This document shows positions 6,322 through 45,170 of a stretch of DNA of 64,000 nt, in pieces. Numbering within the stretch: the first letter of the stretch is position 1; each line of letters starts with the position of its first letter. The translations under genes and the position numbers were made by a program. The stretch is from assembly GCF_034638445.1 (NCBI RefSeq), contig NC_132969.1, forward strand, positions 319,423 through 383,422, given 5' to 3'. Source of the DNA: Ciconia boyciana (taxonomy: Eukaryota). A model generated the notes under the pieces. The model made no database searches. It was not told where the DNA came from and saw only the letters and a program-made list of their open reading frames with translations.

Positions 6322-6382
6322 TAGGGGGCAGCTATGGGGCTGCCCTATATTTTCTGACCCACCCGAGCGCTTCGCCCCATAG

Positions 6383-6592: not shown

Positions 6593-6674
6593 GTCAGAAT
6601 ATTTCCGCAATTTCGTGGATTCCTGTCTCCAGAAGATCCCGCTCGATCGTCCCACCTCCGACGTTCTCCTCAAG
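6593..6674 (+). CDS. TAOK2: TAOK2 coding exon 9 (end of kinase domain)
   Basis: Acceptor cattgttAG, donor GTAGAA. Translation (W)[27 protein letters not shown]. Confidence 0.9.
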
Positions 6675-6780
6675 GTAGAACTTCCACGAGGGCCACCAAG
6701 GGTGGGGGTGGGGTGGGGTCCCCAAAATTTTGGGGACACCCCACCCCCCCATAACGTGTCGTTCCCCACCCCCCCCTCAG

Positions 6781-6948
6781 CACCGGTTCCTGCTCCGGGA
6801 ACGTCCCCAGCGGGTGGTCTTGGACCTGATCCAGAGGACCAAGGACGCCGTCAGGGAGCTGGACAACCTCCAGTACCGCAAGATGAAGAAGATCCTCTTC
6901 CAAGAAGCCCCCAACGGACCCGGACCCGAGCCCGGCGAGGAGGAGGAG
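6781..6948 (+). CDS. TAOK2: TAOK2 coding exon 10
   Basis: Acceptor cccccctcAG, donor GTGAGG. Translation [56 protein letters not shown]. The exon is 168 nt. Confidence 0.9.
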
Positions 6949-10887: not shown

Positions 10888-10975
10888 GGAGGAAGAGGAA
10901 GGTCCCGAGTTGGCCATGATGCAGGAGGGGGAGCACACCGTCACCTCCAACAGCTCCGTCATCCACCGCTTGCCC
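10700..10975 (+). CDS. TAOK2: TAOK2 coding exon 11 (Ser-rich / poly-Glu region)
   Basis: Acceptor ttcccccAG, donor GTGAGT. Translation [43 protein letters not shown](x about 25)[25 protein letters not shown], matching the human ...[27 protein letters not shown]...[22 protein letters not shown] region. The exon is 276 nt. Confidence 0.9.
10826..10900 (+). repeat. TAOK2: In-exon (GAR)n trinucleotide run encoding about 25 consecutive Glu in TAOK2
   Basis: gaggag...gaagaa... stays in frame within exon 11. The human orthologue has a shorter acidic run at the same position. Confidence 0.85.
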
Positions 10976-17546: not shown

Positions 17547-17897
17547 CCCCCCGACGGCCTCTACGCCCTTCCCCCCCCTCCCCCCCCTCCCCTCCCCCCG
17601 CCGCCCTTCCCCGCTTCTCCCCTCCCCCACCCCTTCTCCACCATCCGCCCCGCCGCCTCGGTGACGCGGCAGCAGCGGGCGCGGGAGCGGGAGGCGGCGT
17701 CGCGGGAGCAGCTCAGCGGGTACCAGCGCATGCGGCGCCAGCACCAGAAGCAGCTCCTGGGCCTGGAGCAGCGCCTGCGCGCCGAGCTGGCCGACCACCG
17801 CCTGCGCCTCGACCGCGAGCTGGAGAGCCAGCGCCTGGCCGCCGCCGCCGAGGCCGACAAGCTGGCCCGGAGGCACCAGGCCATCTTCGAGAAGGAG
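17547..17897 (+). CDS. TAOK2: TAOK2 coding exon 12 (Pro-rich linker and start of coiled-coil region)
   Basis: Acceptor tctcccgcAG, donor GTGGGC. Translation [117 protein letters not shown]. Compare human ...[26 protein letters not shown]...AEKLARRHQAIGEKE. The exon is 351 nt. Confidence 0.9.
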
Positions 17898-19499: not shown

Positions 19500-19628
19500 G
19501 CCAAGGTGGCGTTGGGGGAGGAGAAGAAGTTCCAGCAGCACATCCTGGGCCAGCAGAAGAAGGAGCTGGGCAACCTGCTGGAGGCCCAGCGGCGGCACTA
19601 CAAACTGCGCAAGGAGCAGCTCAAGGAG
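19500..19628 (+). CDS. TAOK2: TAOK2 coding exon 13
   Basis: Acceptor cgcccttAG, donor GTGGGG. Translation [43 protein letters not shown]. Confidence 0.9.
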
Positions 19629-20760: not shown

Positions 20761-20785
20761 CCCCCCGCCCCGCGCCGTGGGGCAG

Positions 20786-20989
20786 GAGCTGCAGGAGAAC
20801 CCCAGCACGCCCAAGCGGGAGAAGCAGGAGCGGCTGCTGCGGCAGAAGGAGACGCTGCAGCAGCTGCAGGCGGAGGAGGAGGCCGCGCTGCTCTGCCGCC
20901 AGCGCCAGTACTTCGACCTCCAGTGCCGCCAGTACAAGCGCAAGATGTTACTGGCCCGCCACAACCTCGACCAGGATCTGCTGCGGGAG
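20786..20989 (+). CDS. TAOK2: TAOK2 coding exon 14
   Basis: Acceptor gtggggcAG, donor GTGAGG. Translation [68 protein letters not shown]. The exon is 204 nt. Confidence 0.9.
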
Positions 20990-20999
20990 GTGAGGGGGG

Positions 21000-21900
21000 A
21001 GGGGAGGGGAGGGGGTGGGGGGCGGAGGAGGGTCGAGGGGGTGGGGGAAGGGGTTAGGGGGGGGTTTTATGGGGGTGGGGAAGGGTTTAGGGGAGGTTAG
21101 GAGGGTCACTGGGGGGTGGGGAAGGGGTTAGGAAGGCTTTTATGGGGGTGGGGAAGGGTTATGGGGGGTTAGGAGGGTCACTGGAGGGGTGGGGAAGGGT
21201 TTAGGGAGGTTAGGAAGGTTTTTATGGGGGTGGGGAAGGGTTAGGAGGGTCACTGGGGGGTGGGGAAGGGTTTGGAGGGGTTAGGAGGGTCACTGGAGGG
21301 GTGGGGGAGGGGTTAGGGGGCTTTATGGGGGTGGGGAAGGGTTATGGGGGTTAGGAGGGTCACTGGAGGGGTGGGGAAGGGTTAGGGGGTTTTATGGGGG
21401 TGGGGAAGGGTTTAGGGGGGTTAGGAGGGTCACTGGGGGTGGGGAAGGGTTAGGGGGTTTTATGGGGGTGGGGAAGGGTTTAGGAGGGGTTAGGAGGGTC
21501 ACTGGGGGGTGGGGAAGGGTTAGGGGGCTTTTATGGGGGTGGGGAAGGGTTTAGGAGGGGTTAGGAGGGTCACTGGGGGGGTGGGGAAGGGTTAGGGGGC
21601 TTTTATGGGGGTGGGGAAGGGTTATGGGGGGTTAGGAGGGTCACTGGAGGGGTGGGGAAGGGGTTAGGGGGGTTAGGAAGGTTTTTATGGGGGTGGGGAA
21701 GGGTTAGGAGGGTCACTGGAGGGGTGGGGGAGGGTTAGGGGGCTTTTATGGGGGTGGGGAAGGGTTATGGGGGGTTAGGAGGATCACTGGGGGTGGGGAA
21801 GGGGTTGGGGGGGGGTTAGGGGTTTTATGGGGGTGGGGAAGGGCTTACAGGGGGTTAGGAGGGTCACTGGGGGGTGGGGAGGGTTCAGGGGGTCCCTGGA
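21000..21900. repeat. G-rich repeat of about 60 bp (ggggtggggaagggttaggagggtcactgga...), TAOK2 intron 14
   Basis: Direct repetition. Each unit contains one isolated GGTTAGGG but no tandem telomeric hexamers. Confidence 0.8.
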
Positions 21901-23460
21901 GGGGTGGGGAAGGGTTTGGGGGGTTAGGAGAGTCCCTGGGGCTATGGGGCAGGGAGTCCCTGAATCTATGGGGCAGGGCTGTGGGGCTCCTAGCAGGCGA
22001 TAAGGGGTCTCCGGGGCTATGGGGCATCTATGGGGCAGGGGAGTCCCTGAATCTATGGGGCAGGGCTGTGGGGCTCCTAGCAGGTGATAAGGGGGTCTCT
22101 GGGCCATGGGGCATCTATGGGGCAGGGGCCTCCTTGAATCTGTGGGGCAGGGCTAGGGGTGTCCTAGCAGGTGATAAGGGGGTCTCTGGGGCTATGGGGC
22201 ATCTATGGGGTAGGGGGTTTCTTGAATCTATGGGGCAGGGCTGTGGGGCTCCTAGCAGGTGATGAAGGGGTCCCTGAATCTATGGGGCAGGGGAGTCTCT
22301 GGGGCTATGGGGCATCTATGGGGCAGGGAGGTGCCTAAATTTTTGGGGCAGGGCTGTGGGTCTCCTAGCAGGTGGTAATGGGGTCCCTGAAGCTATGGGG
22401 CATCTATGGGGCAGGGAGTTCCCTGGGGCTATGGGGCAGGGTTGTAGGTATTGGAGGAGGTGATGAGGGGGGTCCCTGAATCTATGGGGCAGGGGGTTCC
22501 CTGGGGCTATGGGGCAGGGCTGTGGGGCTCTTAGCAGGCAATAAGGGGGTCTCTGGGCTATGGGGCATCTATGGGGCAGGGGCTTCCTTGAATCTATGGG
22601 GCAGGGCTGTGGGGCTCCTAGCAGGCGATAAGGGGGTCTCCGGGGCTATGGGGCATCTATGGGGCAGGGGAGTCCCTGAATCTATGGGGCAGGGCTGTGG
22701 GGCTCCTAGCAGGTGATAAGGGGGTCTCTGGGCCATGGGGCATCTATGGGGCAGGGGCCTCCTCGAATCTGTGGGGCAGGGCTAGGGGTGTCCTAGCAGG
22801 TGATAAGGGGGTCTCTGGGGCTATGGGGCATCTATGGGGTAGGGGGTTTCTTGAATCTATGGGGCAGGGCTGTGGGGCTCCTAGCAGGTGATGAAGGGGT
22901 CCCTGAATCTATGGGGCAGGGGAGTCTCTGGGGCTATGGGGCATCTATGGGGCAGGAGGTGCCTAAATTTTGGGGCAGGGCTGTGGGTCTCCTAGCAGGT
23001 GGTAATGGGGTCCCTGAAGCTATGGGGCATCTATGGGGCAGGGAGTTCCCTGGGGCTATGGGGCAGGGTTGTAGGTATTGGAGGAGGTGACGAGGGGTCC
23101 CTGAATCTATGGGGCAGGGGTTCCCTGGGGCTATGGGGCAGGGCTGTGGGGCTCTTAGCAGGCAATAAGGGGTCTCTGGGCTATGGGGCATCTATGGGGC
23201 AGGGGCTTCCTTGAATCTATGGGGCAGGGCTGTGGGGCTCCTAGCAGGCGATAAGGGGGTCTCTGGGGCTATGGGGCATCTATGGGGCAGGGGAGTCCCT
23301 GAATCTATGGGGCAGGGCTATGGGGCTCCTAGCAGGCGATAAGGGGGGCTATGGGGCATCTATGGGGCAGGGGAGTCCGTGAATCTATGGGGCAGGGCTG
23401 TGGGGCTCCTAGCAGGCGATAAGGGGGGCTATGGGGCATCTATGGGGCAGGGGCCTCCTC
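21900..23460. repeat. Tandem repeat with about 175-bp sub-units inside an about 630-bp higher-order unit (ctatggggcagggctgtggggctcctagcaggcgataaggg...)
   Basis: ORFs at 22522 and 22697 are 175 nt apart with near-identical translations. Longer blocks recur at about 22061 and 22681. Confidence 0.8.
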
Positions 23461-23559
23461 GAATCTGTGGGGCAGACCCTATGGGACACCCCACACCCCC
23501 CGGGGTGCAGAGGGGGCAGCGGCGGGGGGGGGGCACGGACCCGCTCCCCTCCCCCCTCA

Positions 23560-24360
23560 GTGGGGCAGCACCCATGGGTCCCTCCCCTCCCCCCCCCTCC
23601 CTGCTTTCTCTCCCTTCTCTTTCTGTGTTTTCCTTTTTTTGTTTGGTTTTGGGGGTTTTGGGGTTTTTTGGTTTTTGTTTGTTTGGTTTTGGGGGTTTTT
23701 GGGTTTTTTTGTTGTTTTGGGGGTTTTTTTGTTTGTTTTCTTTGGTTTTTTGGGTTTCTTTTGGGTTTTTTGTTTGTTTTTGTTTATGGGGGGTTTTGTT
23801 TTCTTTTTTTTTGCTTTTTGGGGTTTTTTGGGTTTTTTGTTTTCTTTGGGTTTTTTCTTTTTTTTTGTTTTCTTTGGGGTTTTTTTGTTTTTTGTTTATG
23901 GGTTTTTTGGGGATTTTTTGGGGTTTCTTTGGGTTTTTTTTAATGTTTTTTTGTTTTTTGGGTTTTTATTTGTTTTTCTTGTTTTCTTTGGTTTTTTGCG
24001 TTTCTTTGAGGTTCTTGTTTGGGTTTTTATGGGTTTTTGGTTTGGTTTTTTTTATTTTCTTTACTTTTTTTGTTTCTTTTTGGTTTTTTTTTTTGTTGGG
24101 TTGGTTTTTTATGGGTTTTGGGGCGGTTTTTTTGCTTTCTTTTTGGTTTTTTTGTTGTTTTCTTTCGTTTTTTTTACGTTTCTTCGGTGGTTTTGTTTGT
24201 TTGTTTCTTTTTTTATGGGTGTTTTTATTTTTTTTCCCTTTTCACGTTTTTTCTCTGTTTCTCTGGTTTTGGGGCGCTCTTCTCCCGTTCCCTTTGTTTC
24301 CTTCTTCGCTTTTGTTCCTTTTTTTCCCTTTTTCCTTTTTATTTTTTGTTTGCTTTGCTC
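23560..24360. repeat. T/G-rich low-complexity tract (ttttgggggttttttgg variants)
   Basis: Composition; the plus-strand ORFs are Phe/Leu/Gly artefacts. Confidence 0.8.
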
Positions 24361-24900
24361 TTTCTGGGTTTTTTTTATTATTATTATTCCCCCCCTGCTC
24401 CCCCCTCCCCCCCCTCCCTTTTCCCCCCCTTTCTGCCCCCTCCCCTTTCTGCCCCCTTTCTCCCCCTTCTCCCTCCCCCTTCTCCCTCCCCCTTATCTCC
24501 CCCTTATCTCCCCCTTATCTCCCCCTTATCTCCCCCCTTATCTCCCCCCTTATCTCCCCCTTATCTCCCCCCTTATCTCCCCCTTATCTCCCCCCTTATC
24601 TCCCCCTTATCTCCCCTTATCTCCCCCTCCTTATCCCCCCTCCTTATCCCCCCCTCCTTATCCCCCCTTCTCCCCCCTTCTCCCCCTTTCTCTCCCCCCT
24701 TCTCTCCCCCTCCTCTCTCCCCCTCCTCCCCCTCCCCCTTCTCCCCCTCCCCTCCTCCCCCTCTTCCCCACCCCCTCCCCCCATCTTTCTCACCCCCCTT
24801 CTGACCTCCCTTCTCCCCCTTTCTCCCCCCTCTGCCTTCCTCCCCCCATCCTCCCCCTTCCCCCCTTCCTCCCCCCTTCTCCCCCCTCCCCCTCCCCTAC
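24360..24900. repeat. C/T-rich microsatellite (cccttatctcc)n and variants immediately upstream of TAOK2 exon 15
   Basis: Perfect iterations of ccccttatctcc; a polypyrimidine tract several hundred nt long ends at the exon 15 acceptor. Confidence 0.85.
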
Positions 24901-24938
24901 CCCCTCCCCCCTCCCGGAGGGGAAAAGCAACCCCGCAG

Positions 24939-25178
24939 GAACTCACCAAAAAACAGACGCAGAAGGATCTGGAATGCGCCACGCTGCTGCGGCACCACGA
25001 GGCCACGCGCCAGCTGGAGACGCGGCACCTGGCCGCCCTGCACCGCACCCGCGCCGACCTCGCCCGCTGCCAGCACCAGAGCGAGCTGGCCCACCAGCGC
25101 GACTACAACCGCCGCCGCCACCAGGACCTGCGCCAAAAGCACGCCGCCCAGCTCCGCCAGCAGCCCAAACGCCTCCGA
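24939..25178 (+). CDS. TAOK2: TAOK2 coding exon 15 (beta/short-isoform splice form)
   Basis: Acceptor aaccccgcAG, GT donor (gtaggt) at 25179. Translation ELTKKQTQKDLECATLLRHHEATRQLETRHLAALHRTRADLARCQHQSELAHQRDYNRRRHQDLRQKHAAQLRQQPKRLR. Compare human DLNKKQTQKDLECALLLRQHEATRELELRQ...RQKHAAQVRQQPKSLK. The exon is 240 nt, phase 0. Confidence 0.85.
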
Positions 25179-26018
25179 GTAGGTGCCGCCGACGCCGGGG
25201 GCGGCCGCGTCGCCGCCGCCGTGGCCGCCGCCGTTTTCCCCCGCTGCCTCTGCTCCCTCCTGGCCCTGGTCCTCGCCCTCCGCCCCGCCTTCCCCTCCCT
25301 CCTCTTCCTCCTCGCCGCCCTTTGGGTCCAAAAACGCGGCGTCGGGGGCTTCCTCTTGGCCCTCGAGTGCGGCGCCGCCGCCTCCGCCCTGGCCTACGCC
25401 CTCCTCCCCCCCGGCGGCCCCTTCGCGGGGGTCCCCTTCCCGGCCCTGGCGGCGGCGGGGGGCGCGGCGGCCGTTTTGGGGCTCAGCGCCCGCCGCCGCC
25501 GCTTCTACGTCCCCGTCATCCTCCTGGCCTCGCAGCTCTTCGCCTCCCCCTGGCTCTTCCTGCCCCTCTACCTCGCCGGCGTCTGCGCCCGCGCCCTCTT
25601 CGGGGACCTCCCCCGCCGCGCCCAGCGCCTCTGGCTCCGGGGGGTCCTGGCCCTGCCCCCCTCCCTTTTCGGGGTGCTCTTGCGCTCGGGCCTGGCCTCC
25701 GAGCGCCGCCTCTTCCGCCTCTTCCCCAAAACCAACAAGGGGGGGTTCCGCTCCCGCCTGCCCATCCCCCAGCGGGGGGCTCGGCCCCTCCCCCCCTCCC
25801 CCCGCCGCTGCTTCTCCGCCCTCAAGCGCCGCCTCCTCGCTTTGGGGGGACGCTTGGCCCCTTTGGCCCGCCCTTTTTTTTTGGGGGGGCGGCCCCGCCC
25901 GCCCCCCAGTCGTATCCCCCGCCCTGCCCCCCGCGCCCCTTTTGCCGCAGCCCCGCCCCGGGGGGGCGACGACGACGGCGCCCGGGGTCCCCCCGCCCCG
26001 CGGCGCCCGTGGAGGTGA
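25179..26018 (+). CDS. TAOK2: Probable alternative terminal coding extension of TAOK2 exon 15 (TAOK2-alpha-like read-through tail)
   Basis: When the 25179 donor is not used, the frame stays open for 279 codons to a stop at 26016-26018. The sequence is non-repetitive and hydrophobic: ...VFPRCLCSLLALVLALRPAFPSLLFLLAALWVQKRGVGGFLLALECGAAASALAYALLPPGG...FYVPVILLASQLFASPWLFLPLYLAGVCARALFGDLP...GVLALPPSLFGVLLRSGLASERRLFRLFPKTNKGG.... By analogy, the long human TAOK2 isoform arises by read-through at the same exon, and UniProt annotates helical TM segments within its C-terminal part. This identification is inference. Confidence 0.45.
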   Translation, partial: VGAADAGGGRVAAAVAAAVFPRCLCSLLALVLALRPAFPSLLFLLAALWVQKRGVGGFLLALECGAAASALAYALLPPGGPFAGVPFPALAAAGGAAAVLGLSARRRRFYVPVILLASQLFASPWLFLPLYLAGVCARALFGDLPRRAQRLWLRGVLALPPSLFGVLLRSGLASERRLFRLFPKTNKGGFRSRLPIPQRGARPLPPSPRRCFSALKRRLLALGGRLAPLARPFFLGGRPRPPPSRIPRPAPRAPFAAAPPRGGDDDGARGPPAPRRPWR

Positions 26019-26099
26019 CGGCGGCCCACGGGGCCGCGGCCCCGGCTGCACCCAGGCACTACGGACCCCCTCCTCCCCGGCAGGGTCTCGGGGACCCCC

Positions 26100-27360
26100 T
26101 CCCCCTTTGGGCTCGGGGACCCCCTTTTGGTTTTGGGGACCAACCCAAGGGGAGCTGAGATCCCCCTTTGGGGCTCGGGGACACCCCCCCCTCTTGTTTT
26201 GGGGACCCCCCCTTGTTTTGGGGACCCCCCCTTTCTTTTGGGGACCCCCCCGTTTGGGGCTGAGGACCCCCCCGTTTGGGGCCAGGGACCCCCCCCTTTT
26301 GGCCTCAGGGACCCCCCGTTTGGGGCTGAGGACCCCCCCTTTGGTTTTGGGGACCCCCTTGGCCTCAGGGACCCCCCCTTTTTGGGGACCTCCCAAGGGG
26401 GGCTGAGACCCCCCCCCTTGGCCTCGGGGACCCCCCCCTTTTGGTTTTGGGGACCCCCCCAAGGGGGGTTGAGATCCCCCATTTGGGGCTGAAGACCCCC
26501 CTCTTTTTTTGGGGGGACCCCCCCCTTGGCTCGGGGACCCCCCCTTTGTTTTGGGGACCCCCCCCTTGCCATTGGGGACCCCCCCTTGGGGACTGACTCC
26601 CTCGGGGACCCCCTCTTTGGGGGGGGGGGAGCTCCCCCCCAAAGCTTTTGGGGTCCCCCCCAGGCTTTTGGGGTCCCCCCAATAACTTCAGGGTCCCCCC
26701 CCAAGGATTTGGGGTCCCCCCCAGGGGTTAGGGACCCCCCCCCGCTTTTGGGGTCCCCCCATGGGGTTTGGGTCCCCCAAAAGCTTTAGGGACCCCCCCC
26801 CAGGCTTTTGGGGACCCTCCCAGGCTTTTGGGGTCCCCCCCTGGGCTTTGGGTCCCCCCCAAAAGCTTTGGGGTCCCCCCAAGGGATTAAGAATCCCCCC
26901 CAAGGGGTTTGGGGTCCCCCCATGGGGTTTGGGGTCCCCCTGGGTTTTGGGGTCCCCCCCCAGATTTGGGCTCCCCAAAAAAACTTTGGGGTCCCCCCCC
27001 AGGATTTTGGGGTCCCCCCAGGGTCCCCCCCCATGGGGGTTTGGGGTCCCCTCTGGGTTTTGGGGTCCCCCCCATGGGGGTTTGGGGTCCCCCCAAAAAA
27101 ACTTTGGGGTCCCCCCCTTGGGGTTTGGGTCCCCCCCGGGTTTTGGGGCCCCCCCAAAGTTTTGGGGTCCCCCCCACATTTGGGCTCCCCCAAAAAACTT
27201 TGGGCCCCCCCCCCCCGGGCTTTGGGTCCCCCCCCAGGGGGTTTTGGGGTCCCCCCCCAGGATTTTGGGGTCCCCCCCTTGGGGTTTGGGTCCCCCCCCG
27301 GGTTTTGGGGTCCCCCCCAAGTTTTGGGGTCCCCCCCGGTGTTGGGGTGCGGGGGGGGGG
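26100..27360. repeat. 13-16-bp repeat (ttggggtccccccaaggg / tttggggaccccccc)
   Basis: Alternating G-runs and C-runs with short T-runs. The same family recurs at 46450-47200. Confidence 0.8.
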
Positions 27361-27419
27361 GGGCTCCTGTTGGCTGTTTTGTGTTAAATACATTATTTAA
27401 ACCCAAGGGCACCCTTGGC

Positions 27420-30400
27420 ACCTCTCCGGGGTTTTATTTCGGGGAGGGCGGGGGCACCCATGGGTGCTGGGGGCACCCATGGGTGCCGGGGTGGCGTGGG
27501 GGGCACCCGTGGGTGCTGGGGTCACCCATGGGTGGGGGAATGCAATGCCAGGGGCACCCGTGGGTGCTGGGGTCACCCATGGGTGCTGGGGTGTCCTGGG
27601 GGGGCACCCATGGGTGCTAGGGCCACCCATGGGTGCTGGGGTGTTCTGGGGGGCACCATGAGCATGGCCCATGGGTACTAGGAGCCACCCATGGGTGGGG
27701 GGGCACCCGATGGGTGTTGGGGGCACCCATGGGTGCTGGGGTGTCCTGGGGGGCATCCATGGGTGCTAGGGCCACCCATGTGTGGGGGAGTGCAATGGGG
27801 GGCACCCGATGGGTGTTGGGGTCACCCATGGGTGCTGGGGTGTCCTGGGAAGCACCTATGGGTGCTGGGGTCACCCATGGGTGGGGGACACAATGCGGGG
27901 GCACCCATGGGTGGGGAGTGCAGTGAGGGGGCACCCATGGGTGCTGGGGTCACCCATGGGTGGGGGGACGGGATGGGGGGCAGTCACCCCGTGGGTGCTG
28001 AGGTCACCTATGGGTGGGGGACACGATGCAGGGGTCACCCATGGGTGCTGGGGCAACTCTGTGGGTGCTGGTGTCACCCATGGGTGGGGGACGGGATGGG
28101 GGGTCACCCCGTGGGAGCCAGGGTCACCCATGGGTGCTGGTGTCACCCATAGGTGGGGGGACACAACGGGGGGCACCCATGGGTGCTGGGGGCACCCATG
28201 GGTGAGGGGGCGGGGTGGGGGGGGATCACCCCATGGGTGCCAGGGTCACCCTATGGGTGCTGGTGTCACCCATAGGTGGGGCAGTGCAATGGGGGGGTCA
28301 CCCATGGGTGCTGGGGTCACCCTATAGATGGTGGGATGGGATGGAGGGGTCACCCCATGGGTGATGAGGTCACCCAAGGGTGGTGGGACACGATGGGGGG
28401 GTCTTCACCCAAGGACAGGGATGCAATAGGGGGGTCACCCATGGGTGCTGAGATCACCCAGGGGTGCTGAGATCACCCAGGGTTGGTGGGACATGGTTTG
28501 GGGTCACCCACGGGTGCTGAGATCACCCAGGGTTGGTGGGACACGGTTTGGGGTCACCCATGGGTGCTGAGATCACCCAGGGTTGGTGGGACACGATTTG
28601 GGGTCACCCACGGGTGCTGAGATCACCCACGGGTGCTGAGATCACCCAGGGTTGGTGGGACATGGCTTGGGGCTCATCTATGGGTCGTGAGATCACCCAC
28701 GGGTGCTGAGATCAGCCAGGGTCGATGGGACGCAACGTGGGGCTCATCCATGGGTGCTGAGGTCACCCATGGGTGGTGGGACATGGTTTGGGGCTCATCC
28801 ATGGGTTGTGAGGTCACCCATGGGTGCTGAGATCACCCATGGGTGGTGGGACACGATTTAGGGTCACCCATGGGTGCTGAGATCACCCATGGTCGATGGG
28901 ACACGATTCGGGGTCACTCATGGGTGCCGAGATCAGCCAGGGTTGGTGGGACACGATTCGGGGTCACCCATGGGTTGTGAGATCACCCACGGGTGCCGAG
29001 ATCACCCAGGGTTGGTGGGACATAGTTTGGGGCTCACCCATGGGTGCTGAGATCAGCCAAGGTTGATGGGACGCAACGTGGGGCTCATCCATGGGTCATG
29101 AGATCACCCATGGGTGCTGAGATCACCCAGGGTTGGTGGGACGCAATGTGGGGCTCATCCATGGGTGCTGAGATCACCCAAGGGTGGTGGGACATGGTTT
29201 GGGGCTCATCCATGGGTCGTGAGATCACCCATGGGTGCTGAGATCACCCAGGGTTGGTGGGACATGGTTTGGGGCTCACCCATGGGTGCTGAGATCAGCC
29301 AAGGTTGATGGGACGCAATGTGGGGCTCATCCATGGGTCGTGAGATCACCCATGGGTGCTGAGATCACCCAGGGTTGGTGGGACACGATTTAGGGTCACC
29401 CGTGGGTGCTGAGATCACCCATGGTCGATGGGACACGATTCGGGGTCACCCATGGGTGCTGAGATCACCCAGGGTTGGTGGGACACAATGTGGGGTTCAT
29501 CCATGGGTGCTGAGATCACCCAAGGGTGGTGGGACATGGTTTGGGGCTCATCCATGGGTCGTGAGATCACCCATGGGTGCTGAGATCACCCACGGGTGGT
29601 GGGACATGATTTGGGGTCACCCATGGGTTATGAGATCACCCATGGGTGCTGAGATCACCCAGGGTTGGTGGGACACGATTTGGGGTCACCCACGGGTGCT
29701 GAGATCACCCAAGGTCGATGGGACGCAACGTGGGGCTCATCCATGGGTGCTGAGATCACCCAAGGGTGGTGGGACACGATTTGGGGCTCATCTATAGGTC
29801 ATGAGATCACCCATGGGTGCTGAGATCACCCATGGGTGGTGGGACATGATTTGGGGTCACCCATGGGTGCTGAGATCGCCTGTGGGTCGTGAGATCACCC
29901 ATGGGTGCTGAGATCACCCAGGGTTGGTGGGACACGATTTGGGGCTCATCTATAGGTCATGAGATCACCCATGGGTGCTGAGATCACCCATGGGTGGTGG
30001 GACATGATTTGGGGTCACCCATGGGTTATGAGATCACCCATGGGTGCTGAGATCACCCAGGGTTGGTGGGACACGATTTGGGGTCACCCACGGGTGCTGA
30101 GATCACCCAAGGTCGATGGGACGCAACGTGGGGCTCATCCATGGGTGCTGAGATCACCCATGGGTGGTGGGACATGATTTGGGGTCACCCATGGGTGCTG
30201 AGATCACCCATGGTTGATGGGACACGATTTGGGGTCACCCATGGGTGCTGAGATCACCCAGGGTTGGTGGGACACGATTTGGGGCTCATCTGTGGGTTGT
30301 GAGATCACCCATGGGTGCTGAGATCACCCAAGGTTGATGGGACGCAACGTGGGGCTCATCCATGGGTCGTGAGATCACCCATGGGTGCTGAGATCACCCA

Positions 30401-31300
30401 GGGTTGGTGGGACGCAACGTGGGGCTCACCCATGGGTGCTGAGATCACCCATGGGTGCTGGGACATGATTTGGGGTCACCCATGGGTTATGAGATCACCC
30501 ATGGGTGCTGAGATCACCCAGGGTTGGTGGGACACGATTTGGGGTCACCCATGGGTCGTGAGATCACCCATGGGTCATGAGATCACCCATGGGTGCTGAG
30601 ATCACCCAGGGTTGGTGGGACGCAACGTGGGGCTCATCCATGGGTGCTGAGATCACCCAGGGTTGGTGGGACACGATTTGGGGTCACCCATGGGTGCTGA
30701 GATCACCCAGGGTTGGTGGGACACGATTTGGGGCTCATCTGTGGGTTGTGAGATCACCCATGGGTGCTGAGATCACCCAGGGTTGGTGGGACATGATTCG
30801 GGGTCACCCATGGGTGCTGAGATCAGCCAGAGTTGGTGGGACGCAACGTGGGGCTCATCCATGGGTGCTGAGATCACCCATGGGTGGTGGGACACGATTT
30901 GGGGCTCATCTATAGGTCATGAGATCACCCATGGGTGCTGAGATCACCCATGGGTGGTGGGACATGATTTGGGGTCACCCATGGGTGCTGAGATCGCCTG
31001 TGGGTCGTGAGATCACCCATGGGTGCTGAGATCACCCAGGGTTGGTGGGACACGATTTGGGGCTCATCTATAGGTCATGAGATCACCCATGGGTGCTGAG
31101 ATCACCCAGGGTTGGTGGGACACGATTCGGGGCTCACCCATGGGTCTTGAGATCACCCATGGGTGCTGAGATCACCCATGGGTGGTGGGGCATGATTTGG
31201 GGTCACCCATGGGTGCTGAGATCACCTGTGGGTCGTGAGATCACCCATGGGTGCTGAGATCACCCAAGGTTGATGGGACACGATTCGGGGTCACCCACGG
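27420..31300. repeat. Minisatellite (gagatcacccatgggtgctga / ggttggtgggacacgatttggggtcaccca) with units of about 18-30 bp and higher-order structure, TAOK2 intron 15
   Basis: Conspicuous direct repetition over 3.9 kb. The first about 1 kb (27420-28450) is a diverged variant (cacccatgggtgctgggg). Confidence 0.85.
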
Positions 31301-31428
31301 GTGCCGAGATCACCCACGGGTGGTGGGACACGACGGGTGGCCACCGCAGTACCCCCCACCCCCCACCCCCACCCCCCCGCCCCTCCCCCAGGCGTGGCTA
31401 ACGCCCCTCCCCCTCTCGGCGGGCGCAG

Positions 31429-31641
31429 CGCGAGGAGCTGCAGCTGAAGAAGCAGTTCCAGGCCAGCTGCAAGGCGCGGGCGCGGCACTACAAGGCCCTG
31501 CGGAGCCACCTCCTGGAGGGCGCGGCCAAGGGGCAGCGCAAGGCGCTGCTGCAGCGCCTGAAGGCCGAGCGGACGCGGGAGTTGGCCGTCCTGGCCGAGC
31601 AGTACGAGCACAGCGTCGGGGAGATGCTCTCCAGCCAGGCC
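31429..31641 (+). CDS. TAOK2: TAOK2 coding exon 16
   Basis: Acceptor ggcgcAG, donor GTAGGT. Translation [71 protein letters not shown]. Compare human [30 protein letters not shown]...AILAEQYDQSISEMLSSQA. The exon is 213 nt. Confidence 0.9.
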
Positions 31642-35164: not shown

Positions 35165-35347
35165 CTCCGATTGGACGAGACGCAAGAGGCGGAGTACCAG
35201 GTGCTGCGCTTGCAGCTGCAGCAGGAGCTGGAGCTCCTCAACGCCTACCAGAGCAAGATCAAGATGCACACGGAGGCCCAGCAGGAACGGGAGCTCAAGG
35301 ACCTGGAGCAACGCGTCTCCATCCGCCGCGCCCTCCTCGAGCAGCGG
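35165..35347 (+). CDS. TAOK2: TAOK2 coding exon 17
   Basis: Acceptor tcatcccccAG, donor GTACGG. Translation [61 protein letters not shown]. The exon is 183 nt. Confidence 0.9.
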
Positions 35348-39408: not shown

Positions 39409-39813
39409 ATCGAGGAGGAGATGCTGGCGCTGCAGGCGGAACGTTCCGAGCGCATCCGGGGGCTGCTGGAACGCCACGCCCGCGAGATCGAGGCCTTCGA
39501 CGCCGAGAGCCTGCGCCTGGGCTTCAGCGGGATGGCTTTGGGGGGGCTGCCCCCCCCCGCCCCTCCCCCGCTGCCCCGCCCCTCCCGCCCCGTCCCCCGC
39601 AGCGGCTCCCATTGGACCCACGGCCCCCCCGACGCTCGCCGACAGCCCCCGCTCCTCGCCCCGCCCCCCTCTTTCGGCGGGGTCCTCCCAACCGGCGGGG
39701 GCGCCCTCCCCCCCCGCGATAGCCCCCAACCCCCGCGGAGGGGAGGGGGGGGAGGGGGAGTAGAGGGGGCGGCCCCCCACCTCCTCAATGGAGCCCATTT
39801 CCCCTATTCCTGA
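39409..39813 (+). CDS. TAOK2: TAOK2 coding exon 18 (terminal, with stop)
   Basis: Acceptor caccccgcAG. Translation [46 protein letters not shown]...[12 protein letters not shown]...[13 protein letters not shown] followed by TGA at 39811-39813. Compare the human end ...HILNGSSHFYS. Summed exon lengths give a 999-aa product in a consistent frame across all 18 exons. Confidence 0.9.
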
Positions 39814-40195: not shown

Positions 40196-40201
40196 AATAA
40201 A
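40196..40201 (+). other. TAOK2: AATAAA polyadenylation signal, probable TAOK2 3-prime end
   Basis: aataAATAAAtgagg lies about 380 nt downstream of the TAOK2 stop. It is the only canonical hexamer between the TAOK2 stop and the CDIPT promoter. Confidence 0.55.
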
Positions 40202-42060: not shown

Positions 42061-42084
42061 CCCGGGGCTTTGGGTGACCCCCAG

Positions 42085-42219
42085 GCTACGCCCGCCTGGC
42101 GCTGGCCGCTGTCTCCTTCTACCTGATGCCGCGGCAGCCGGGGCCGGCGGCCGCCTGCTACGCCCTGAGCGGGCTGATGGACGCCGTCGACGGGCACGTG
42201 GCCCGGCTGCTGGGCCAGG
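42085..42219 (+). CDS. CDIPT: CDIPT coding exon 2
   Basis: Acceptor gacccccAG, donor GTGGGC. Translation (G)YARLALAAVSFYLMPRQPGPAAACYALSGLMDAVDGHVARLLGQ(G); compare human YARIVFAIISFYFMP...LSGLLDAFDGHAARALNQG. Confidence 0.9.
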
Positions 42220-42224
42220 GTGGG

Positions 42225-43050
42225 CGGGGCCGGGGGCGGGGCCTCGGCAGGGCGGGGCTTGGCAGGGTGGGGCCCCGGGGAGGGGGGTGGGGGTATAGGG
42301 GTGGGGAAGGGGAGCAGGGGCTTGGAGAGGGGTGGGGCTTGGGGAGGGGTGGGGCTTAGGAAGGAGGCGGGGCCCAGGTGCATATGGGGGTGGGGTTAGG
42401 GGAGGGCGTTGCAGCTCTGGGGGCGGGGCTTGGCAGGGTGGGGCCCGGGGGAGGGGGGTGGGGGTATAGGGGTGGGGAAGGGGAGGGGTGGGGCTTGGGA
42501 GGGGTGGGGCTTAGGAAGGAGGCGGGGCCCAGGTGCATATGGGGGTGGGGATAGGGGAGGTGTGGTGTGAGTCTGGGGGCAGGGCTTGGGGAGGGGCGGA
42601 GCTGAAGGGCGGAGCTTGGGGAGGGGCAGGGCCCGGGGCATGTGGGGACGGGGGGTGTGGTGGTGCAGCTTGAAGGGCGGGGCTTGTGAGGGTGGGGCTT
42701 GGCAGGGGCGGGGCTTGGGGAGGGGTGGGGCTTGGGGAGGGGCGGGGTCCGGGGCGATGATGTATGGGGGAGGGAAGGGGATAGGCGATGTCTGGGGGCG
42801 GGGCTTGGGGCGTGGTCACAGAGAGGGGGCGGAGCTCCAACTTCCTCCCCATGGAAGAGGCGGGGCCCACCCCCAAGTCCCCACCCGCAGTGGGCGTGGC
42901 TGACCCTTAGCCCCGCCCCTCGGCCGGGCGCCGCGCTGGACATTGCCCCATGGCGGGAGCGGGGGGGGGGGGTGTCCTGCCCCATAGCGGCTCCCTGCCC
43001 CGCCCCCGGTGGTCCCGCCCCCCCGTGGGCGTGGCTGAGCCTTGTCCCCG
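42225..43050. repeat. G-rich repeat (ggggcttggggaggggtgggg; about 155-bp higher-order unit), CDIPT intron 2
   Basis: aggaggcggggcccaggtgcatatgggggtgggg recurs at about 42361 and 42519. Confidence 0.75.
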
Positions 43051-43057
43051 CCCCCAG

Positions 43058-43211
43058 GCTCGCGGCTGGGCGCCATGCTGGACATGCTGACGGACCGGCT
43101 CTCCACCATGTGCCTCCTGCTCAACCTGGCCCTGCTCTACCCCGCCGCCGCCCCCCTCTTCCAGCTCAGCATGGCCCTCGACGTGGCCAGCCATTGGCTG
43201 CACATGCACTG
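43058..43211 (+). CDS. CDIPT: CDIPT coding exon 3 (CDP-alcohol phosphatidyltransferase motif region)
   Basis: Acceptor cgcccccAG, donor GTGGGC. Translation (G)SRLGAMLDMLTDRLSTMCLLLNLALLYPAAAPLFQLSMALDVASHWLHMH; compare human TRFGAMLDMLTDRCSTMCLLVNLALLYPGATLFFQISMSLDVASHWLHLH. Confidence 0.9.
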
Positions 43212-43214
43212 GTG

Positions 43215-44170
43215 GGCGGGGCTTGCGGGGGCGGGGCGTGCTGGGGGGCGGGGCCTCGGCGGGGTAAGGGGGGGCTGGGATCAGGGGCTGCCCTGGGGGG
43301 GGTGTGTGTGTCTGGGCGAGGGGCGGGGCTTGATGGGGAGGGGCGGGGCTTGGGGAGGGGGCGGGGCTTGGGGACCCTGGGATATGGGGGGCTGCACTGG
43401 AAGGAAAGGGAGGGGGCGTGGTCTGGGGAGGGGGCGGGGTTTGGGAGGGGCGGGGCTTGGGGACCCTGGGATATGGGGGGCTGCACTGAAAGGAAAGGGG
43501 GGCGTGGTCTGGGGAGGGGCGGGGTTTGGGGAGGGGGCGGGGCTTGGGGACCCTGGGATATGGGGGGCTGCACTGAAAGGAAAGGGTGGGGGCGTGGTCT
43601 GGGTGAGGGGGCGGGGCTTGATGGGGAGGGGCGGGGCTTGGGGACCCTGGGATATGGGGGGCTGCACTGAAAGGAAGGGGGCGTGGTCTGGGCGAGGGGG
43701 CGGGGCTTGTAGAGGGGGCGGGGCTTGGGGACCCTGGGATATGGAGTGGTCTGGGCGAGGGGCGTGGTCTGGTCTCAGGGTGTGGTCTGGGCGAGGGGCG
43801 GGGCCTGGGGTAAAGGCGGGGCTTGGGGATGGGGTGGGGCTTGGGAAGGGGAGGAGCCTGGGGTAGGGTGTGCAGTGGGGGTGGAGCTTATCCTCGGAGG
43901 CGTGGCCTTATCCTCGGGGTGGGGCCTTATCCTGGGGGCGGAGTGTTATACTTGGGGCGGGGTCTTATCCTGGGGGCGGGACCTTACCCTTGGAGGTGTG
44001 GCCTTATCCTCGGGGGCAGGGCCTTATCCTCGGGGGCGGGGCCAGCTGTCTATACCTTGGGGGGGGTGATGTGTGTTTCTCCCCTCCTCCCCCGGGTGGG
44101 GCGTGGCCGTGGGTGGGGCCGGTGGCGGGGGTGTGGCCGCGTGGGCGTGTCCTCGCCTGACCCCGCCCCC
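43215..44170. repeat. About 105-bp repeat x5 (ggggaccctgggatatggggggctgcactgaaaggaaaggg) followed by a 16-bp repeat x8 (gccttatcctcggggg), CDIPT intron 3
   Basis: Direct repetition. Confidence 0.8.
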
Positions 44171-44178
44171 TCCGGCAG

Positions 44179-44260
44179 CACCACCCTGCAGGGAGGGGAG
44201 AGCCACAAGGCGGTGGGGGGGGAGGTGCACCCCCTCCTGCGGCTGTACTACGGCTCCAGG
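44179..44260 (+). CDS. CDIPT: CDIPT coding exon 4
   Basis: Acceptor ctccggcAG, donor GTGAGT. Translation (C)TTLQGGESHKAVGGEVHPLLRLYYGSR; compare human SSVVRGSESHKMIDLSGNPVLRIYYTSR. Confidence 0.85.
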
Positions 44261-44337
44261 GTGAGTGGGGAGGGGAGGGGGTGGGGGTGGGGGAGGGGGT
44301 GACCTCCCGCCCCCCCTTGACCCGCCCTCCCCCCCAG

Positions 44338-44419
44338 CCCCTCCTGTTCCTGCTCTGCGCCGGCAACGAGGGGTTTTACTGCTGCCTCTACCTGCTGCAC
44401 TTCGGGGAGGGGCCGCCCG
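44338..44419 (+). CDS. CDIPT: CDIPT coding exon 5
   Basis: Acceptor ctcccccccAG, donor GTGAGG. Translation PLLFLLCAGNEGFYCCLYLLHFGEGPP; compare human PALFTLCAGNELFYCLLYLFHFSEGPL. Confidence 0.9.
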
Positions 44420-45170
44420 GTGAGGGACTGGGGGGACTGGGACGGACTGGGAGGGGACTGGAGGGACTGGGAGGGGACTGAGGGGACTGGGGGGACTGGG
44501 GGGACTGGGAGGGAACTGGGGGTACTGGGGGGCTGGGAGGGAACTGGGGGGCTGGGAGGGGAACTGGGGGGACTGGGAGGGGACTGGGAGGGGAACTGGG
44601 GGGACTGGGAGGGGAACTGGGGGGACTGGGAGGGGCTGGGAGGGGCGGGGAGGGGAACTGGGGGACTGGGAGGGAACTGGGGAGGACTAGGGAGGGACTG
44701 GAGGGGAACTGGGGGGGACTGGGAGGGACTGGGAGGGACTGGGGGGACTGGGAGGGACTGGGGAGGGACTAGGGGTCACTGGGAGGGGACTGGGAGGGAG
44801 TGGGAGGAACTGGGAGGGATTTGGGGGGAACTGGGGGGCACCGGGTGGATCCGGGGTTGATTGCGATGGGGTGGGGGGGAACTGGGAGGGGACTGGGGGT
44901 CACTGGGGGGAAACTGGGAGGGACTGGGGGAACTGGGAGGGGAACTGGGGGGACTGGGAGGGGAACTGGGGGGGACTGGGAGGGGCTGGGAGGGGACTAG
45001 GGGTCACTGGGAGGGGACTGGGAGGGACTGGCGGGAACTGGGAGGGATTTGGGGGGAACTGGGGGCACCGGGTGGATCCGGGGTCGATTGCGACGGGCGG
45101 GGGGGAACTGGGGGCACTGGGGGGCACCGGTTGGAACTGGGAGAGACTGGGAGATAGCGGGGCGGGGGAG
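44420..45170. repeat. About 21-bp repeat (gggactgggaggggaactgggg), CDIPT intron 5
   Basis: Direct repetition filling the whole intron. Confidence 0.85.

What the first reader, a model, noticed from the sequence alone, without database searches (positions are those of the whole stretch)
25179..26018. Read-through of the TAOK2 exon 15 donor gives a 279-codon hydrophobic tail (TAOK2-alpha-like isoform)
Immediately 3-prime of exon 15 the frame stays open for 840 nt in non-repetitive sequence. It encodes several long hydrophobic Leu/Ala/Phe-rich segments (SLLALVLAL..., LLFLLAALW..., FYVPVILLASQLFASPWLFLPLYLAGVCA..., GVLALPPSLFGVLL...) separated by basic patches. In human, the long TAOK2 isoform is produced by the same kind of read-through at the equivalent exon, and UniProt annotates helical transmembrane segments within its C-terminal part. 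Finding an open, non-repetitive, membrane-protein-like continuation at the homologous position argues that the alternative isoform is conserved in this lineage. It also explains this unique island inside a repeat-filled intron.
Basis: partly seen in the sequence, partly recalled or inferred. Interest (0 to 1): 0.55.

Follow-up and report, generated by a model that had tools for sequence, protein, structure and literature searches.

The report
TAOK2 long-isoform membrane tail, conserved
The open frame that continues past this TAOK2 exon is the true counterpart of the membrane-anchoring tail of the long human TAOK2 isoform, so it is an ordinary conserved alternative gene end, notable only for having lost its usual long linker.

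Summary
Frame 25179..26018 (+) is 279 sense codons plus TGA, directly continuing the exon that ends at 25178.

Its openness alone means nothing here. The stretch is 78% G+C, 24% of composition-matched shuffles stay open, and three of the six frames have no stop.

Homology settles it. The translation matches TAO2 long-isoform tails of turtles (E 1e-46), a passerine bird, caecilians, sharks, teleosts and mammals. A profile comparison with mammalian tails gives probability 100%, E 3e-43, aligned to the last residue (…PWR*).

The modules described for human TAOK2-alpha are in register:
- a ~120-residue block of six hydrophobic helices
- a helix at the position of the human amphipathic helix
- an SxIP motif (SRIP)
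- a basic end

In every homologue that contains the junction, the donor GT is read as Val (…QQPKxLK/R-V…). Human variant nomenclature shows the same contiguity.

The alternative beta exons (31429-31641, 35165-35347, 39409-39813) are also present, so both isoforms are encoded.

What differs: the 129-228-residue acidic linker is reduced to about 20 residues, and no canonical poly(A) signal follows the tail. Expression could not be tested.

This is a new member of a known kind, of low to moderate interest.

The parts
24939..25178 (+).
   Evidence: tblastn with caecilian TAO2 X1 gives 66% identity over 80 aa. The acceptor ...ccccgcag|GAACTC is read from the sequence.
25179..25184 (+). 5' splice donor GTAGGT. 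It is used for the beta isoform and read through as Val-Gly for the alpha isoform.
   Evidence: Sequence. Every homologue that contains the junction has V at this position after ...LK/R. Context CGA|GTAGGT departs from the consensus at -1 and +4 (own reading of the sequence).
25179..26018 (+). Alpha-specific coding extension: 279 codons plus TGA (26016-26018), with no Met codon
   Evidence: Homology.
25179..25238 (+). Remnant linker of about 20 residues (VGAADAGGGRVAAAVAAAVF), where other vertebrates have 129-228 residues
   Evidence: Alignment A1 and the length table.
25218..25586 (+). Hydrophobic multi-helix block (tail residues 14-136), equivalent to human residues 941-1066, the six transmembrane helices sufficient for ER targeting
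   Evidence: Mapping through alignment A1. Hydropathy. AlphaFold2 helices 8-34, 38-53, 55-75, 86-105, 110-120, 124-142 at low confidence. Human data in PMC8699727.
25599..25769 (+). Most conserved block of the tail (residues 141-197): RRAQRLWLR...PPSLF...ERRLFRLFPKTNKGGFRSRLPIP. FPKTNKGGFRSRLP is at 25722-25763.
   Evidence: Invariant or near-invariant columns from sharks to mammals. This is the highest-pLDDT part of the model, 71-80. It is the only block significant in direct BLASTP against the mammalian tail.
25800..25880 (+). Candidate amphipathic helix (residues 208-234, PRRCFSALKRRLLALGGRLAPLARPFF), counterpart of human 1146-1162
   Evidence: AlphaFold2 helix 208-234. Human 1146-1162 aligns to residues 215-222. 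The amphipathic character was not computed.
25908..25919 (+). SxIP motif (SRIP within PPPSRIPRP), counterpart of the human EB1-binding TRIP 1192-1195
   Evidence: P-S-R-x-P nearly invariant. Function in human.
25920..26015 (+). Proline- and arginine-rich C-terminal end finishing ...RRPWR, counterpart of the human microtubule-binding 1196-1235. Net charge is only about +4 (7 R, 3 D).
   Evidence: The same ...PWR* end occurs in turtle, caecilian, mammal and teleost sequences and, in a shifted frame, in Vidua.
26019..27420 (+). Presumed 3' UTR of the alpha transcript, mostly about 20-nt G4/C7-type tandem repeats (26101-27337). The only poly(A)-signal variants are AATACA (27387) and TTTAAA (27396), in the only AT-rich spot of the intron.
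   Evidence: The 3' end is inferred, not shown.
31429..31641 (+). First beta-specific exon ([11 protein letters not shown]...SSQA)
   Evidence: Splice sites read.
35165..35347 (+). Second beta-specific exon ([12 protein letters not shown]...LLEQR)
   Evidence: tblastn gives 79% identity. Splice sites read.
39409..39813 (+). Terminal beta exon (IEEEMLALQ...NGAHFPYS*) with AATAAA at 40196-40201

Best explanation
This is the alpha-specific part of a composite terminal exon of a TAOK2 orthologue, probably in a bird.

Proposed mechanism. When the donor at 25179 is spliced to 31429, the mRNA encodes the soluble coiled-coil beta C-terminus. When the donor is not used, and the transcript is presumably cleaved and polyadenylated inside the intron, translation runs on from ...QQPKRLR through Val-Gly for 279 codons.

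What the added tail contains:
- a remnant linker of about 20 residues
- a block of about 120 residues forming six hydrophobic helices
- a strongly conserved juxtamembrane block (LFRLFPKTNKGGFRSRLP)
- a helix at the position of the human amphipathic helix
- an SRIP (SxIP) motif
- a Pro/Arg-rich end, ...RRPWR

By homology with human TAOK2-alpha, this tail would embed the kinase in the ER membrane and link it to microtubules and EB proteins.

Shown here: the frame, the gene context, full-length homology, module-by-module correspondence, and the presence of both alternative 3' ends.

Inferred: that the read-through mRNA is made in this species, where it ends, the membrane topology, and ER and microtubule binding.
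For: Gene identity:
- All TAOK2 coding exons from ATG 2783 onward are mapped.
- The kinase domain scores best against solved TAO2 (678 bits) ahead of TAO3 (605 bits).
- The beta exons are present.

Homology of the tail:
- Lepidochelys kempii: E 1e-36.
- The full HMMER scan of 1.8 billion proteins found only 12 hits. At least the top nine are TAO2-type tails: turtle-like 1e-46, Vidua chalybeata TAO2-like 2e-43, caecilian TAO2 X1 2e-24, sharks, a mammalian tail 5e-7 and teleost TAO2 X1.
- hhalign of sauropsid against mammalian tails: probability 100%, E 3.4e-43, 270 columns, running to the C-terminus.

Architecture:
- The junction V is conserved.
- The exon and the tail are contiguous in the turtle-like contig L002.
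- Human HGVS equivalences c.2811dup = c.2232+579dup and c.2551del = c.2232+319del show the same contiguity.

Modules:
- Lengths are conserved: hydrophobic block 115 residues against 115-120 in most homologues (two cartilaginous-fish sequences align shorter, 76 and 103), block end to FPK 47 against 47-52 (41 in the Vidua model), SxIP and end present.

Constraint:
- The frame is kept over 274 aligned codons since the split from turtles.
- dN/dS is 0.45-0.48. GC3 is 91%.

Dependence on upstream exons:
- Neither the tail nor the preceding exon has a Met codon, so the tail can be translated only as a continuation of TAOK2.

Function in human: PMC8699727.
Against: - There is no transcript evidence for this species.
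- No AATAAA or ATTAAA lies on the + strand between the stop and the next exon. Only the weak variants AATACA and TTTAAA occur, about 1.37 kb downstream.
- dN/dS of about 0.45 shows only moderate constraint.
- The AlphaFold2 model is of low confidence (pLDDT 59.8, pTM 0.29), and no dedicated transmembrane predictor was available.
- The C-terminal segment is much less basic (+4) than the mammalian microtubule-binding segment (10 R, no acidic residue).
- The linker with the otherwise conserved RGxADGC motif is missing.
Confidence: 0.85

Rival explanations
1. Homologous relic. The tail descends from the ancestral TAOK2-alpha exon extension but is no longer expressed or needed in this lineage. It stays open only because stop codons are rare at 78% G+C.
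For: - Openness carries no weight here.
- There is no canonical poly(A) signal.
- The linker and its conserved motif are lost, and the C-terminal basic character is reduced.
- dN/dS is not very low.
- The Vidua copy shows a frameshift before the C-terminal module in its assembly.
Against: - A neutral sequence would have accumulated frameshifting indels. The frame is instead colinear with turtle, caecilian and mammalian tails from residue 16 to the final PWR, and the stop is at the homologous position.
- The best-conserved motifs are intact.
- GC3 far exceeds GC2, as expected for coding sequence.
- dN/dS is below 1 in two comparisons.
Confidence: 0.1
2. Chance open frame in a GC-rich intron, with hydrophobic-looking translation caused by C/T/G-rich codons (Leu, Ala, Pro, Gly).
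For: 24% of shuffles remain open, and overlapping ORFs of 370-840 aa exist in other frames and on the other strand. Pfam finds nothing in the tail.
Against: The database-wide hits are essentially confined to TAO2 tails, with E down to 1e-46. The profile-profile comparison gives E 3e-43. The other frames have no Pfam match.
Confidence: 0.01
3. An independent gene or promoter. The hydrophobic protein is made from its own transcript inside the TAOK2 intron, or from the 581-aa ORF on the opposite strand.
For: A long ORF exists on the minus strand at 24897..26642.
Against: The tail and the upstream exon contain no Met codon. Homologues are annotated as one polypeptide with the kinase and coiled coil. 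The minus-strand ORFs have no family match and are expected at this composition.
Confidence: 0.02

Closest known systems
Human and mouse TAOK2-alpha (long isoform, 1235 aa; transcript NM_016151), an ER-anchored kinase that tethers ER to microtubules (PMC8699727)
   Same: - Same host gene and same exon junction. The shared part ends ...QQPKxLK/R, and the donor GT is read as Val (residue 745 in human numbering).
- Same order of modules: six hydrophobic helices, the FPKTNKxGFRSR block, a helix at the amphipathic-helix position, SxIP, and an end in PWR.
- Homology extends to the last residue.
   Different: - The linker between junction and membrane block is about 20 residues instead of about 200, and the conserved RGxADGC motif is gone.
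- FPK-to-SxIP is 61 residues against 76, and SxIP-to-end is 36 against 44.
- The C-terminal segment has net charge about +4 (7 R, 3 D), against 10 R and no acidic residue in the mammalian sequence.
- Outside one block, direct pairwise similarity to mammals is not significant.
TAO2 'isoform X1' gene predictions in other non-mammalian vertebrates: caecilians XP_033800693 and XP_029462827, teleost XP_071777646, white shark XP_041038136, and a Lepidochelys kempii partial product
   Same: Same read-through tail. The closest full matches are 47-53% identical for turtle-type sequences and about 38% for caecilian.
   Different: All of them keep a long acidic linker. They are automated predictions and have not been studied experimentally.
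Vidua chalybeata 'TAO2-like' XP_053789224 (contig JAPVQZ010000092.1)
   Same: It has the closest tail, 60% identity over 192 codons. The downstream neighbour is the same CDP-alcohol phosphatidyltransferase gene. Its C-terminal PPPPSRIPRPAPR...RRPWR* is nearly identical to the window's.
   Different: - In that assembly the C-terminal module is in a +1 frame, so the gene model ends early.
- No counterpart of the junction exon, of the three upstream coiled-coil exons queried, or of the beta exons was found in the 35.6 kb read.
- Its kinase domain is only 71% identical to the window's.
TAOK2-beta (1049 aa), TAOK1 and TAOK3 C-termini
   Same: Same kinase and coiled-coil body. The window also encodes the beta ending.
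   Different: These endings are soluble coiled coil plus low-complexity sequence. According to PMC8699727 they lack the hydrophobic block.

Membership tests
TAOK2-alpha (long, membrane-anchored isoform of TAOK2) | The host gene is the TAOK2 orthologue: kinase domain, coiled-coil exons and beta-type alternative ending | tested here: met
   Exons are mapped from ATG 2783 to 39813. The best solved relative is TAO2 at 678 bits, against TAO3 at 605.
TAOK2-alpha (long, membrane-anchored isoform of TAOK2) | The tail is the in-frame continuation of the shared exon through its 5' splice site (phase 0, GT read as Val) | tested here: met
   Sequence and translation. Junction ...LK/R-V occurs in caecilian, shark, teleost and mammalian sequences. 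The two parts are contiguous in L002.
TAOK2-alpha (long, membrane-anchored isoform of TAOK2) | Sequence homology of the tail to the mammalian alpha tail | tested here: met
   phmmer gives E 4.7e-7 database-wide to the mammalian P0009. hhalign gives probability 100%, E 3.4e-43, 270 columns. P0009 carries no source name. It was identified as mammalian TAOK2-alpha because the published human coordinates fit it exactly and from my own recollection of the human sequence.
TAOK2-alpha (long, membrane-anchored isoform of TAOK2) | Multi-pass hydrophobic block (six predicted transmembrane helices, human 941-1066) | tested here: met
   Human 941-1066 maps to tail residues 14-136. Hydropathy peaks reach 1.6-2.2. 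Six helices are modelled in that span (low confidence). The number and topology of true membrane spans were not established, because no TMHMM or DeepTMHMM was available.
TAOK2-alpha (long, membrane-anchored isoform of TAOK2) | Amphipathic helix after the membrane block (human 1146-1162) | tested here: inconclusive
   A helix is modelled at residues 208-234, and residues 215-222 align to the human segment. The hydrophobic moment was not computed, and this region is shortened.
TAOK2-alpha (long, membrane-anchored isoform of TAOK2) | SxIP motif in a basic, proline-rich context (EB1 binding) | tested here: met
   SRIP at residues 244-247, in columns that are nearly invariant across vertebrates. 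Binding itself cannot be tested here.
TAOK2-alpha (long, membrane-anchored isoform of TAOK2) | Basic microtubule-binding C-terminal segment ending ...PWR | tested here: inconclusive
   The homologous segment and the ...RRPWR* end are present. Net charge is only about +4, against 10 R and no acidic residue in the mammalian sequence.
TAOK2-alpha (long, membrane-anchored isoform of TAOK2) | Long acidic linker with the RGxADGC motif between the junction and the membrane block. This is a common feature of the homologues, not a functional requirement established in the literature read here. | tested here: not met
   20 residues here against 129-228 elsewhere, and the motif is absent.
TAOK2-alpha (long, membrane-anchored isoform of TAOK2) | The read-through mRNA is made and polyadenylated within the intron | not testable with these tools
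   No RNA data were available. There is no AATAAA or ATTAAA in 26019-31428 on the + strand, only AATACA at 27387 and TTTAAA at 27396.

The most novel reading that the evidence does not exclude
In this (probably avian) lineage the ER-anchoring tail of TAOK2 is kept in a minimal form. The whole 130-230-residue acidic linker and its conserved RGxADGC motif are deleted, so the coiled coil sits about 20 residues from the membrane block, and the microtubule-binding end is much less basic.

If this form is expressed, two things would follow. The linker would be dispensable for the anchor function. The invariant core, dating back to the ancestor of jawed vertebrates, would be the six-helix block plus the uncharacterised RLWLR...LFxLFPKTNKGGFRSRLPVP block. 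That block is the best-conserved part of the tail and is not among the named modules in the passages of the human study that I read.
Probability: 0.55. Interest if true: 0.35.

Novelty: new member of a known kind. Interest (0 to 1): 0.25.

Why it matters
TAOK2 is a dosage-sensitive gene of the human 16p11.2 autism region. Its alpha and beta isoforms are reported to do different things: alpha is ER-anchored, binds microtubules and acts in neuronal migration, while beta acts on synapses and translation.

This work shows that the alpha-specific tail, its read-through mode of production and its stop position are shared from sharks to mammals. They are also present in this very GC-rich, repeat-filled locus. 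That gives a natural deletion map of the tail: the linker is dispensable, while the six-helix block, the FPKTNKGGFRSR block and the SxIP motif are kept.

There are two practical points. Gene models in such loci are unreliable; the Vidua prediction translates repeats and misses the true C-terminus. ORF length is also useless as evidence at this base composition.

Otherwise the feature is an expected orthologue of a known isoform.

Tried and rejected
- **Pfam on the tail, and on the exon plus tail:** no family. The tail has no Pfam model, so this says nothing either way.
- **PDB sequence search with the tail:** nothing meaningful.
- **Word-indexed protein search with the tail alone:** only two turtle-type hits. 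It missed the 60%-identical Vidua protein, because low-complexity words saturate the candidate list. The profile search returned mostly teleosts.
- **Third search, with the mammalian tail:** no named mammalian entry. The mammalian identity of P0009 therefore rests on coordinate fit to the literature and on my memory of the human sequence.
- **The look-up of encoding contigs for P0004:** nothing on record. P0017 worked.
- **L002 as possible transcript evidence:** it holds no upstream exon next to the junction exon. It is therefore genomic or unspliced and gives no evidence of expression.
- **Chance ORF:** rejected.
- **Minus-strand or other-frame genes:** rejected.
- **Large inverted repeat in the presumed 3' UTR:** none found.
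- **Rfam on the whole window:** no match.
- **Bacterial promoter and terminator scan:** not applicable to a vertebrate gene, and ignored.
- **AlphaFold2 model:** too low in confidence for a fold search, so none was run.
- **Literature search for TAOK2 among 'missing' bird genes:** nothing found.
Full report
**Observation**

The sequence at 25179..26018 on the + strand is 279 sense codons followed by TGA. It is in frame with the preceding exon, which ends ...AAQLRQQPKRLR at 25178. The first six bases, GTAGGT, form a 5' splice-site motif and translate as Val-Gly.

The stretch is free of tandem repeats, while arrays fill 21037-24915 and 26101-31333. 'Unique island in a repeat-filled intron' is therefore correct.

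**Is it more than chance?**

The open frame by itself is not.
- The 840 nt are 78% G+C.
- 24% of mononucleotide or first-order Markov shuffles have no stop in 279 codons.
- Three of the six frames have no stop in this stretch.
- ORFs of 370-840 aa overlap it in other frames and on the other strand.
- ORFs of 150-680 aa are everywhere in the window.

What does exceed chance is codon periodicity (GC at codon positions 1/2/3 = 78/64/91%) and homology.

**Gene context**

tblastn with a caecilian TAO2 isoform X1 maps a full TAOK2 gene on the + strand. It runs from the initiator ATG at 2783, through the kinase exons (2783-6915) and the coiled-coil exons (17634-17888, 19530-19628, 20783-20983), to the exon at 24939-25178. 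The assembled kinase domain scores best against solved rat/human TAO2 (678 bits), ahead of TAO3 (605 bits).

The exons of the alternative beta ending lie downstream:
- 31429-31641
- 35165-35347
- 39409-39813, ending ...NGAHFPYS*, with good acceptor and donor sites and AATAAA at 40196

The hits of 63-79% identity with E about 1e-25 stand on their own. Splicing 25178^31429 gives ...KRLR|[11 protein letters not shown] in phase 0.

**Homology of the tail**

The word-indexed search found two turtle-type proteins (E 2e-41 and 1e-36; one is from Lepidochelys kempii).

The exhaustive HMMER scan of 1.84 billion representatives found 12 proteins in all. At least the top nine are TAO2-type tails:
- a turtle-like sequence (1e-46)
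- Vidua chalybeata 'TAO2-like' (2e-43; 60% identity)
- caecilian TAO2 isoform X1 (2e-24)
- two sharks and an electric ray
- bowfin TAO2
- a mammalian tail recovered from an environmental data set (P0009, 5e-7)
- teleost TAO2 isoform X1

Direct BLASTP of the window tail against the mammalian tail is significant only over the FPKTNK block (E 8e-9). A profile of sauropsid tails against a profile of mammalian tails gives probability 100%, E 3.4e-43 over 270 columns. It covers window residues 16-279 and runs to the final residue of the mammalian protein.

**Architecture is shared**

In every homologue that contains the junction, the sequence reads ...QQPK[SC]LK-V[GRS]..., so the donor GT is read as Val. 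In a turtle-like genomic contig (L002) the junction exon (465-707) and the tail (ending at 2618-2621) are one uninterrupted frame.

For human, a clinical genetics paper lists NM_016151.4:c.2811dup as identical to NM_004783.4:c.2232+579dup, and c.2551del as identical to c.2232+319del (PMC13479925). This is possible only if the alpha coding sequence is the direct continuation of the shared exon into the beta intron after codon 744. Another paper states that the isoforms share residues 1-745 and are 1235 and 1049 aa long (PMC11014455). In human transcript numbering the composite exon is exon 16, not 15. That is only a difference in counting.

**Modules**

The human study of TAOK2-alpha (PMC8699727) reports:
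- six predicted transmembrane helices (941-1066), sufficient for ER targeting
- an amphipathic helix (1146-1162)
- an SxIP motif (TRIP, 1192-1195) needed for EB1/plus-end association
- a microtubule-binding end (1196-1235)

With an offset that sets the last residue of P0009 to 1235, these coordinates fall exactly on the hydrophobic block, on LLARFWALCKGWNWRLA, on SRIP and on the basic end of P0009. The junction Val becomes residue 745.

Through the alignment they map to the window as follows:

| Human module | Window tail residues | Window nt |
|---|---|---|
| Six TM helices, 941-1066 | 14-136 | 25218-25586 |
| Amphipathic helix, 1146-1162 | 215-222, within a modelled helix 208-234 | 25800-25880 (whole helix) |
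| SxIP, 1192-1195 | 244-247 (SRIP) | 25908-25919 |
| Microtubule-binding end, 1196-1235 | 248-279 | 25920-26015 |

An AlphaFold2 model built with 20 homologues is of low confidence (pLDDT 59.8, pTM 0.29). It places six helices in residues 8-142, further short helices to 181, a long helix at 208-234 and a disordered end. That is the same outline as described for human. I did not use the model for fold searching.

Module lengths are conserved in most homologues, apart from two cartilaginous-fish sequences that align shorter over the hydrophobic block and the shortened Vidua model:
- hydrophobic block: 115 residues against 115-120
- block end to FPK: 47 against 47-52
- FPK to SxIP: 61 against 64-91
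- SxIP to end: 36 against 38-63

The best-conserved segment from sharks to mammals is the juxtamembrane block RLWLR...PxxF...ERxLFxLFPKTNKGGFRSRLPVP. It is not among the named modules in the passages of the human paper that I read.

**Constraint**

The frame is colinear with a turtle-like tail over 274 codons and with the Vidua tail over 192 codons. Nei-Gojobori dN/dS is 0.45 and 0.48, which is moderate purifying selection. dS is probably distorted by the extreme GC3.

The stop codon is at the homologous position (...PWR*) in window, turtle, caecilian, teleost and mammalian sequences. In Vidua the same PPPPSRIPRPAPR...RRPWR* is present but shifted by +1 in the assembly.

Neither the tail nor the junction exon contains a Met codon. 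The tail can therefore be translated only as part of TAOK2.

**What differs**

The linker between the junction and the first hydrophobic helix is about 20 residues (VGAADAGGGRVAAAVAAAVF). It is 129 residues in caecilian, 153-219 in sharks, about 203 in mammal and 211-228 in teleosts. The acidic region with the widely conserved RGxADGC motif is missing.

The C-terminal segment has 7 Arg and 3 Asp (net about +4). The mammalian segment has 10 Arg and no acidic residue.

No AATAAA or ATTAAA lies on the + strand between the stop and the next exon. The only poly(A)-signal variants, AATACA at 27387 and TTTAAA at 27396, sit in the only AT-rich spot of the whole interval, between two different repeat arrays. 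That is my candidate for the alpha 3' end, giving a 3' UTR of about 1.4 kb made mostly of 20-nt repeats. It is an inference only.

The donor context CGA|GTAGGT departs from the consensus at -1 and +4. This could favour read-through, but that is speculation.

**Mechanism proposed**

This is a composite terminal exon in which splicing at 25179 competes with intronic cleavage and polyadenylation.
- Splicing gives the soluble beta form.
- Read-through gives an alpha form in which kinase and coiled coil are followed almost directly by a multi-helix membrane anchor, a conserved juxtamembrane block, a helix at the position of the human amphipathic helix, an EB-binding SxIP motif and a Pro/Arg-rich end.

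By homology this is an ER-embedded kinase that couples ER membrane to microtubules. The sequence facts are shown here. Expression, topology and binding are inferred.

**Rivals**

- **Homologous but disused relic (about 0.1).** It is favoured only by the missing canonical poly(A) signal, the lost linker and the modest dN/dS. The preserved frame, motifs and stop argue against it.
- **Chance ORF.** Excluded.
- **Independent gene or opposite-strand gene.** Excluded by the absence of Met codons, the single-polypeptide homologues and the lack of any family match in other frames.

**Lineage**

The source species is not given. Three observations suggest a bird or a close relative:
- The closest tail is that of a passerine (60% identity, against about 50% for turtles).
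- GC3 is extreme.
- The downstream neighbour is a CDP-alcohol phosphatidyltransferase gene in the same order and orientation as on the Vidua contig.

**Novelty and score**

TAOK2-alpha, its mode of production and its membrane tail are known in mammals. Automated annotation already lists equivalent 'isoform X1' proteins in other vertebrates. This is a new, previously undescribed member of that kind.

Two features go modestly beyond the expected: the near-complete loss of the linker, and the conclusion that the tail is ancestral to jawed vertebrates, with an uncharacterised block as its most conserved part.

Interest is 0.25.

Noticed in passing
window 2783-40201 (+): The window holds a complete TAOK2 gene. 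It runs from ATG 2783 to the beta stop at 39811-39813 and AATAAA at 40196. Introns are largely made of tandem arrays. The region between residues ~322 and ~437 of the protein was only partly mapped (one hit at 10907-10975).
   Followed up: partly
window 42081-45343 (+), AATAAA at 45388: Four exon-like tblastx matches (70-91% identity) to the CDP-alcohol phosphatidyltransferase (PF01066) gene that follows TAO2-like on the Vidua chalybeata contig. The gene order TAOK2 then this gene is shared. From memory, it is not the human 16p11.2 order.
   Followed up: partly
window 58513-60162 (-): A minus-strand ORF carries a fragment matching the Pfam Fibrinogen_C domain (E 3.5e-7, 30.7 bits, above the 22-bit cut-off). 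This suggests an exon of a fibrinogen-domain gene on the other strand.
   Followed up: no
L001 (Vidua chalybeata JAPVQZ010000092.1) 23133-23900: The Gnomon model XP_053789224 ends ...FWGFFPSIPEVF*. The conserved C-terminus PPPPSRIPRPAPR...RRPWR* lies just downstream in the +1 frame, which points to an assembly indel or a real frameshift. The model also translates about 300 residues of repeats between the kinase and the tail.
   Followed up: partly
L001 whole locus (35.6 kb): tblastn found no counterpart of the junction exon, of the three upstream coiled-coil exons queried, or of the three beta exons. Only about 3.9 kb separate the tail from the next gene. The Vidua kinase domain is just 71% identical to the window's, while the window's kinase exons are mostly 85-97% identical to caecilian. 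Either the passerine gene is degenerate or fast-evolving, or the assembly is collapsed.
   Followed up: partly
window 27450-31333: About 3.9 kb of tandem repeats with periods of 19, 50, 70 and 120 nt. They are built around the 12-nt perfect palindrome CACCCATGGGTG (unit TCACCCATGGGTGCTGAGA...) and fill most of the intron between the alpha tail and the first beta exon.
   Followed up: no
window 26101-27337: The presumed alpha 3' UTR consists of about 20-nt repeats. The core is GGGGACCCCCC in 26101-26589 and switches to GGGGTCCCCCC in 26633-27337. No long inverted repeat was detected.
   Followed up: partly
tail residues 141-197 (window 25599-25769): The most conserved part of the tail from sharks to mammals is RLWLR...LFxLFPKTNKGGFRSRLPVP. 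It lies between the hydrophobic block and the amphipathic helix. The passages of the human functional study that I read assign it no function.
   Followed up: partly
whole window: Because of the 60-78% G+C content, mechanical ORFs of 150-880 aa occur in several frames on both strands. Examples are 23379..26018 (+, 879 aa) and 24897..26642 (-, 581 aa). ORF length is not usable as evidence of coding anywhere in this window.
   Followed up: yes
protein P0014 (ENA, 189 aa): A database protein joins a bacterial response-regulator receiver domain (PF00072) to a 99%-identical fragment of the mammalian TAOK2-alpha tail. It is most likely a chimeric metagenome contig caused by host-DNA contamination.
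   Followed up: no
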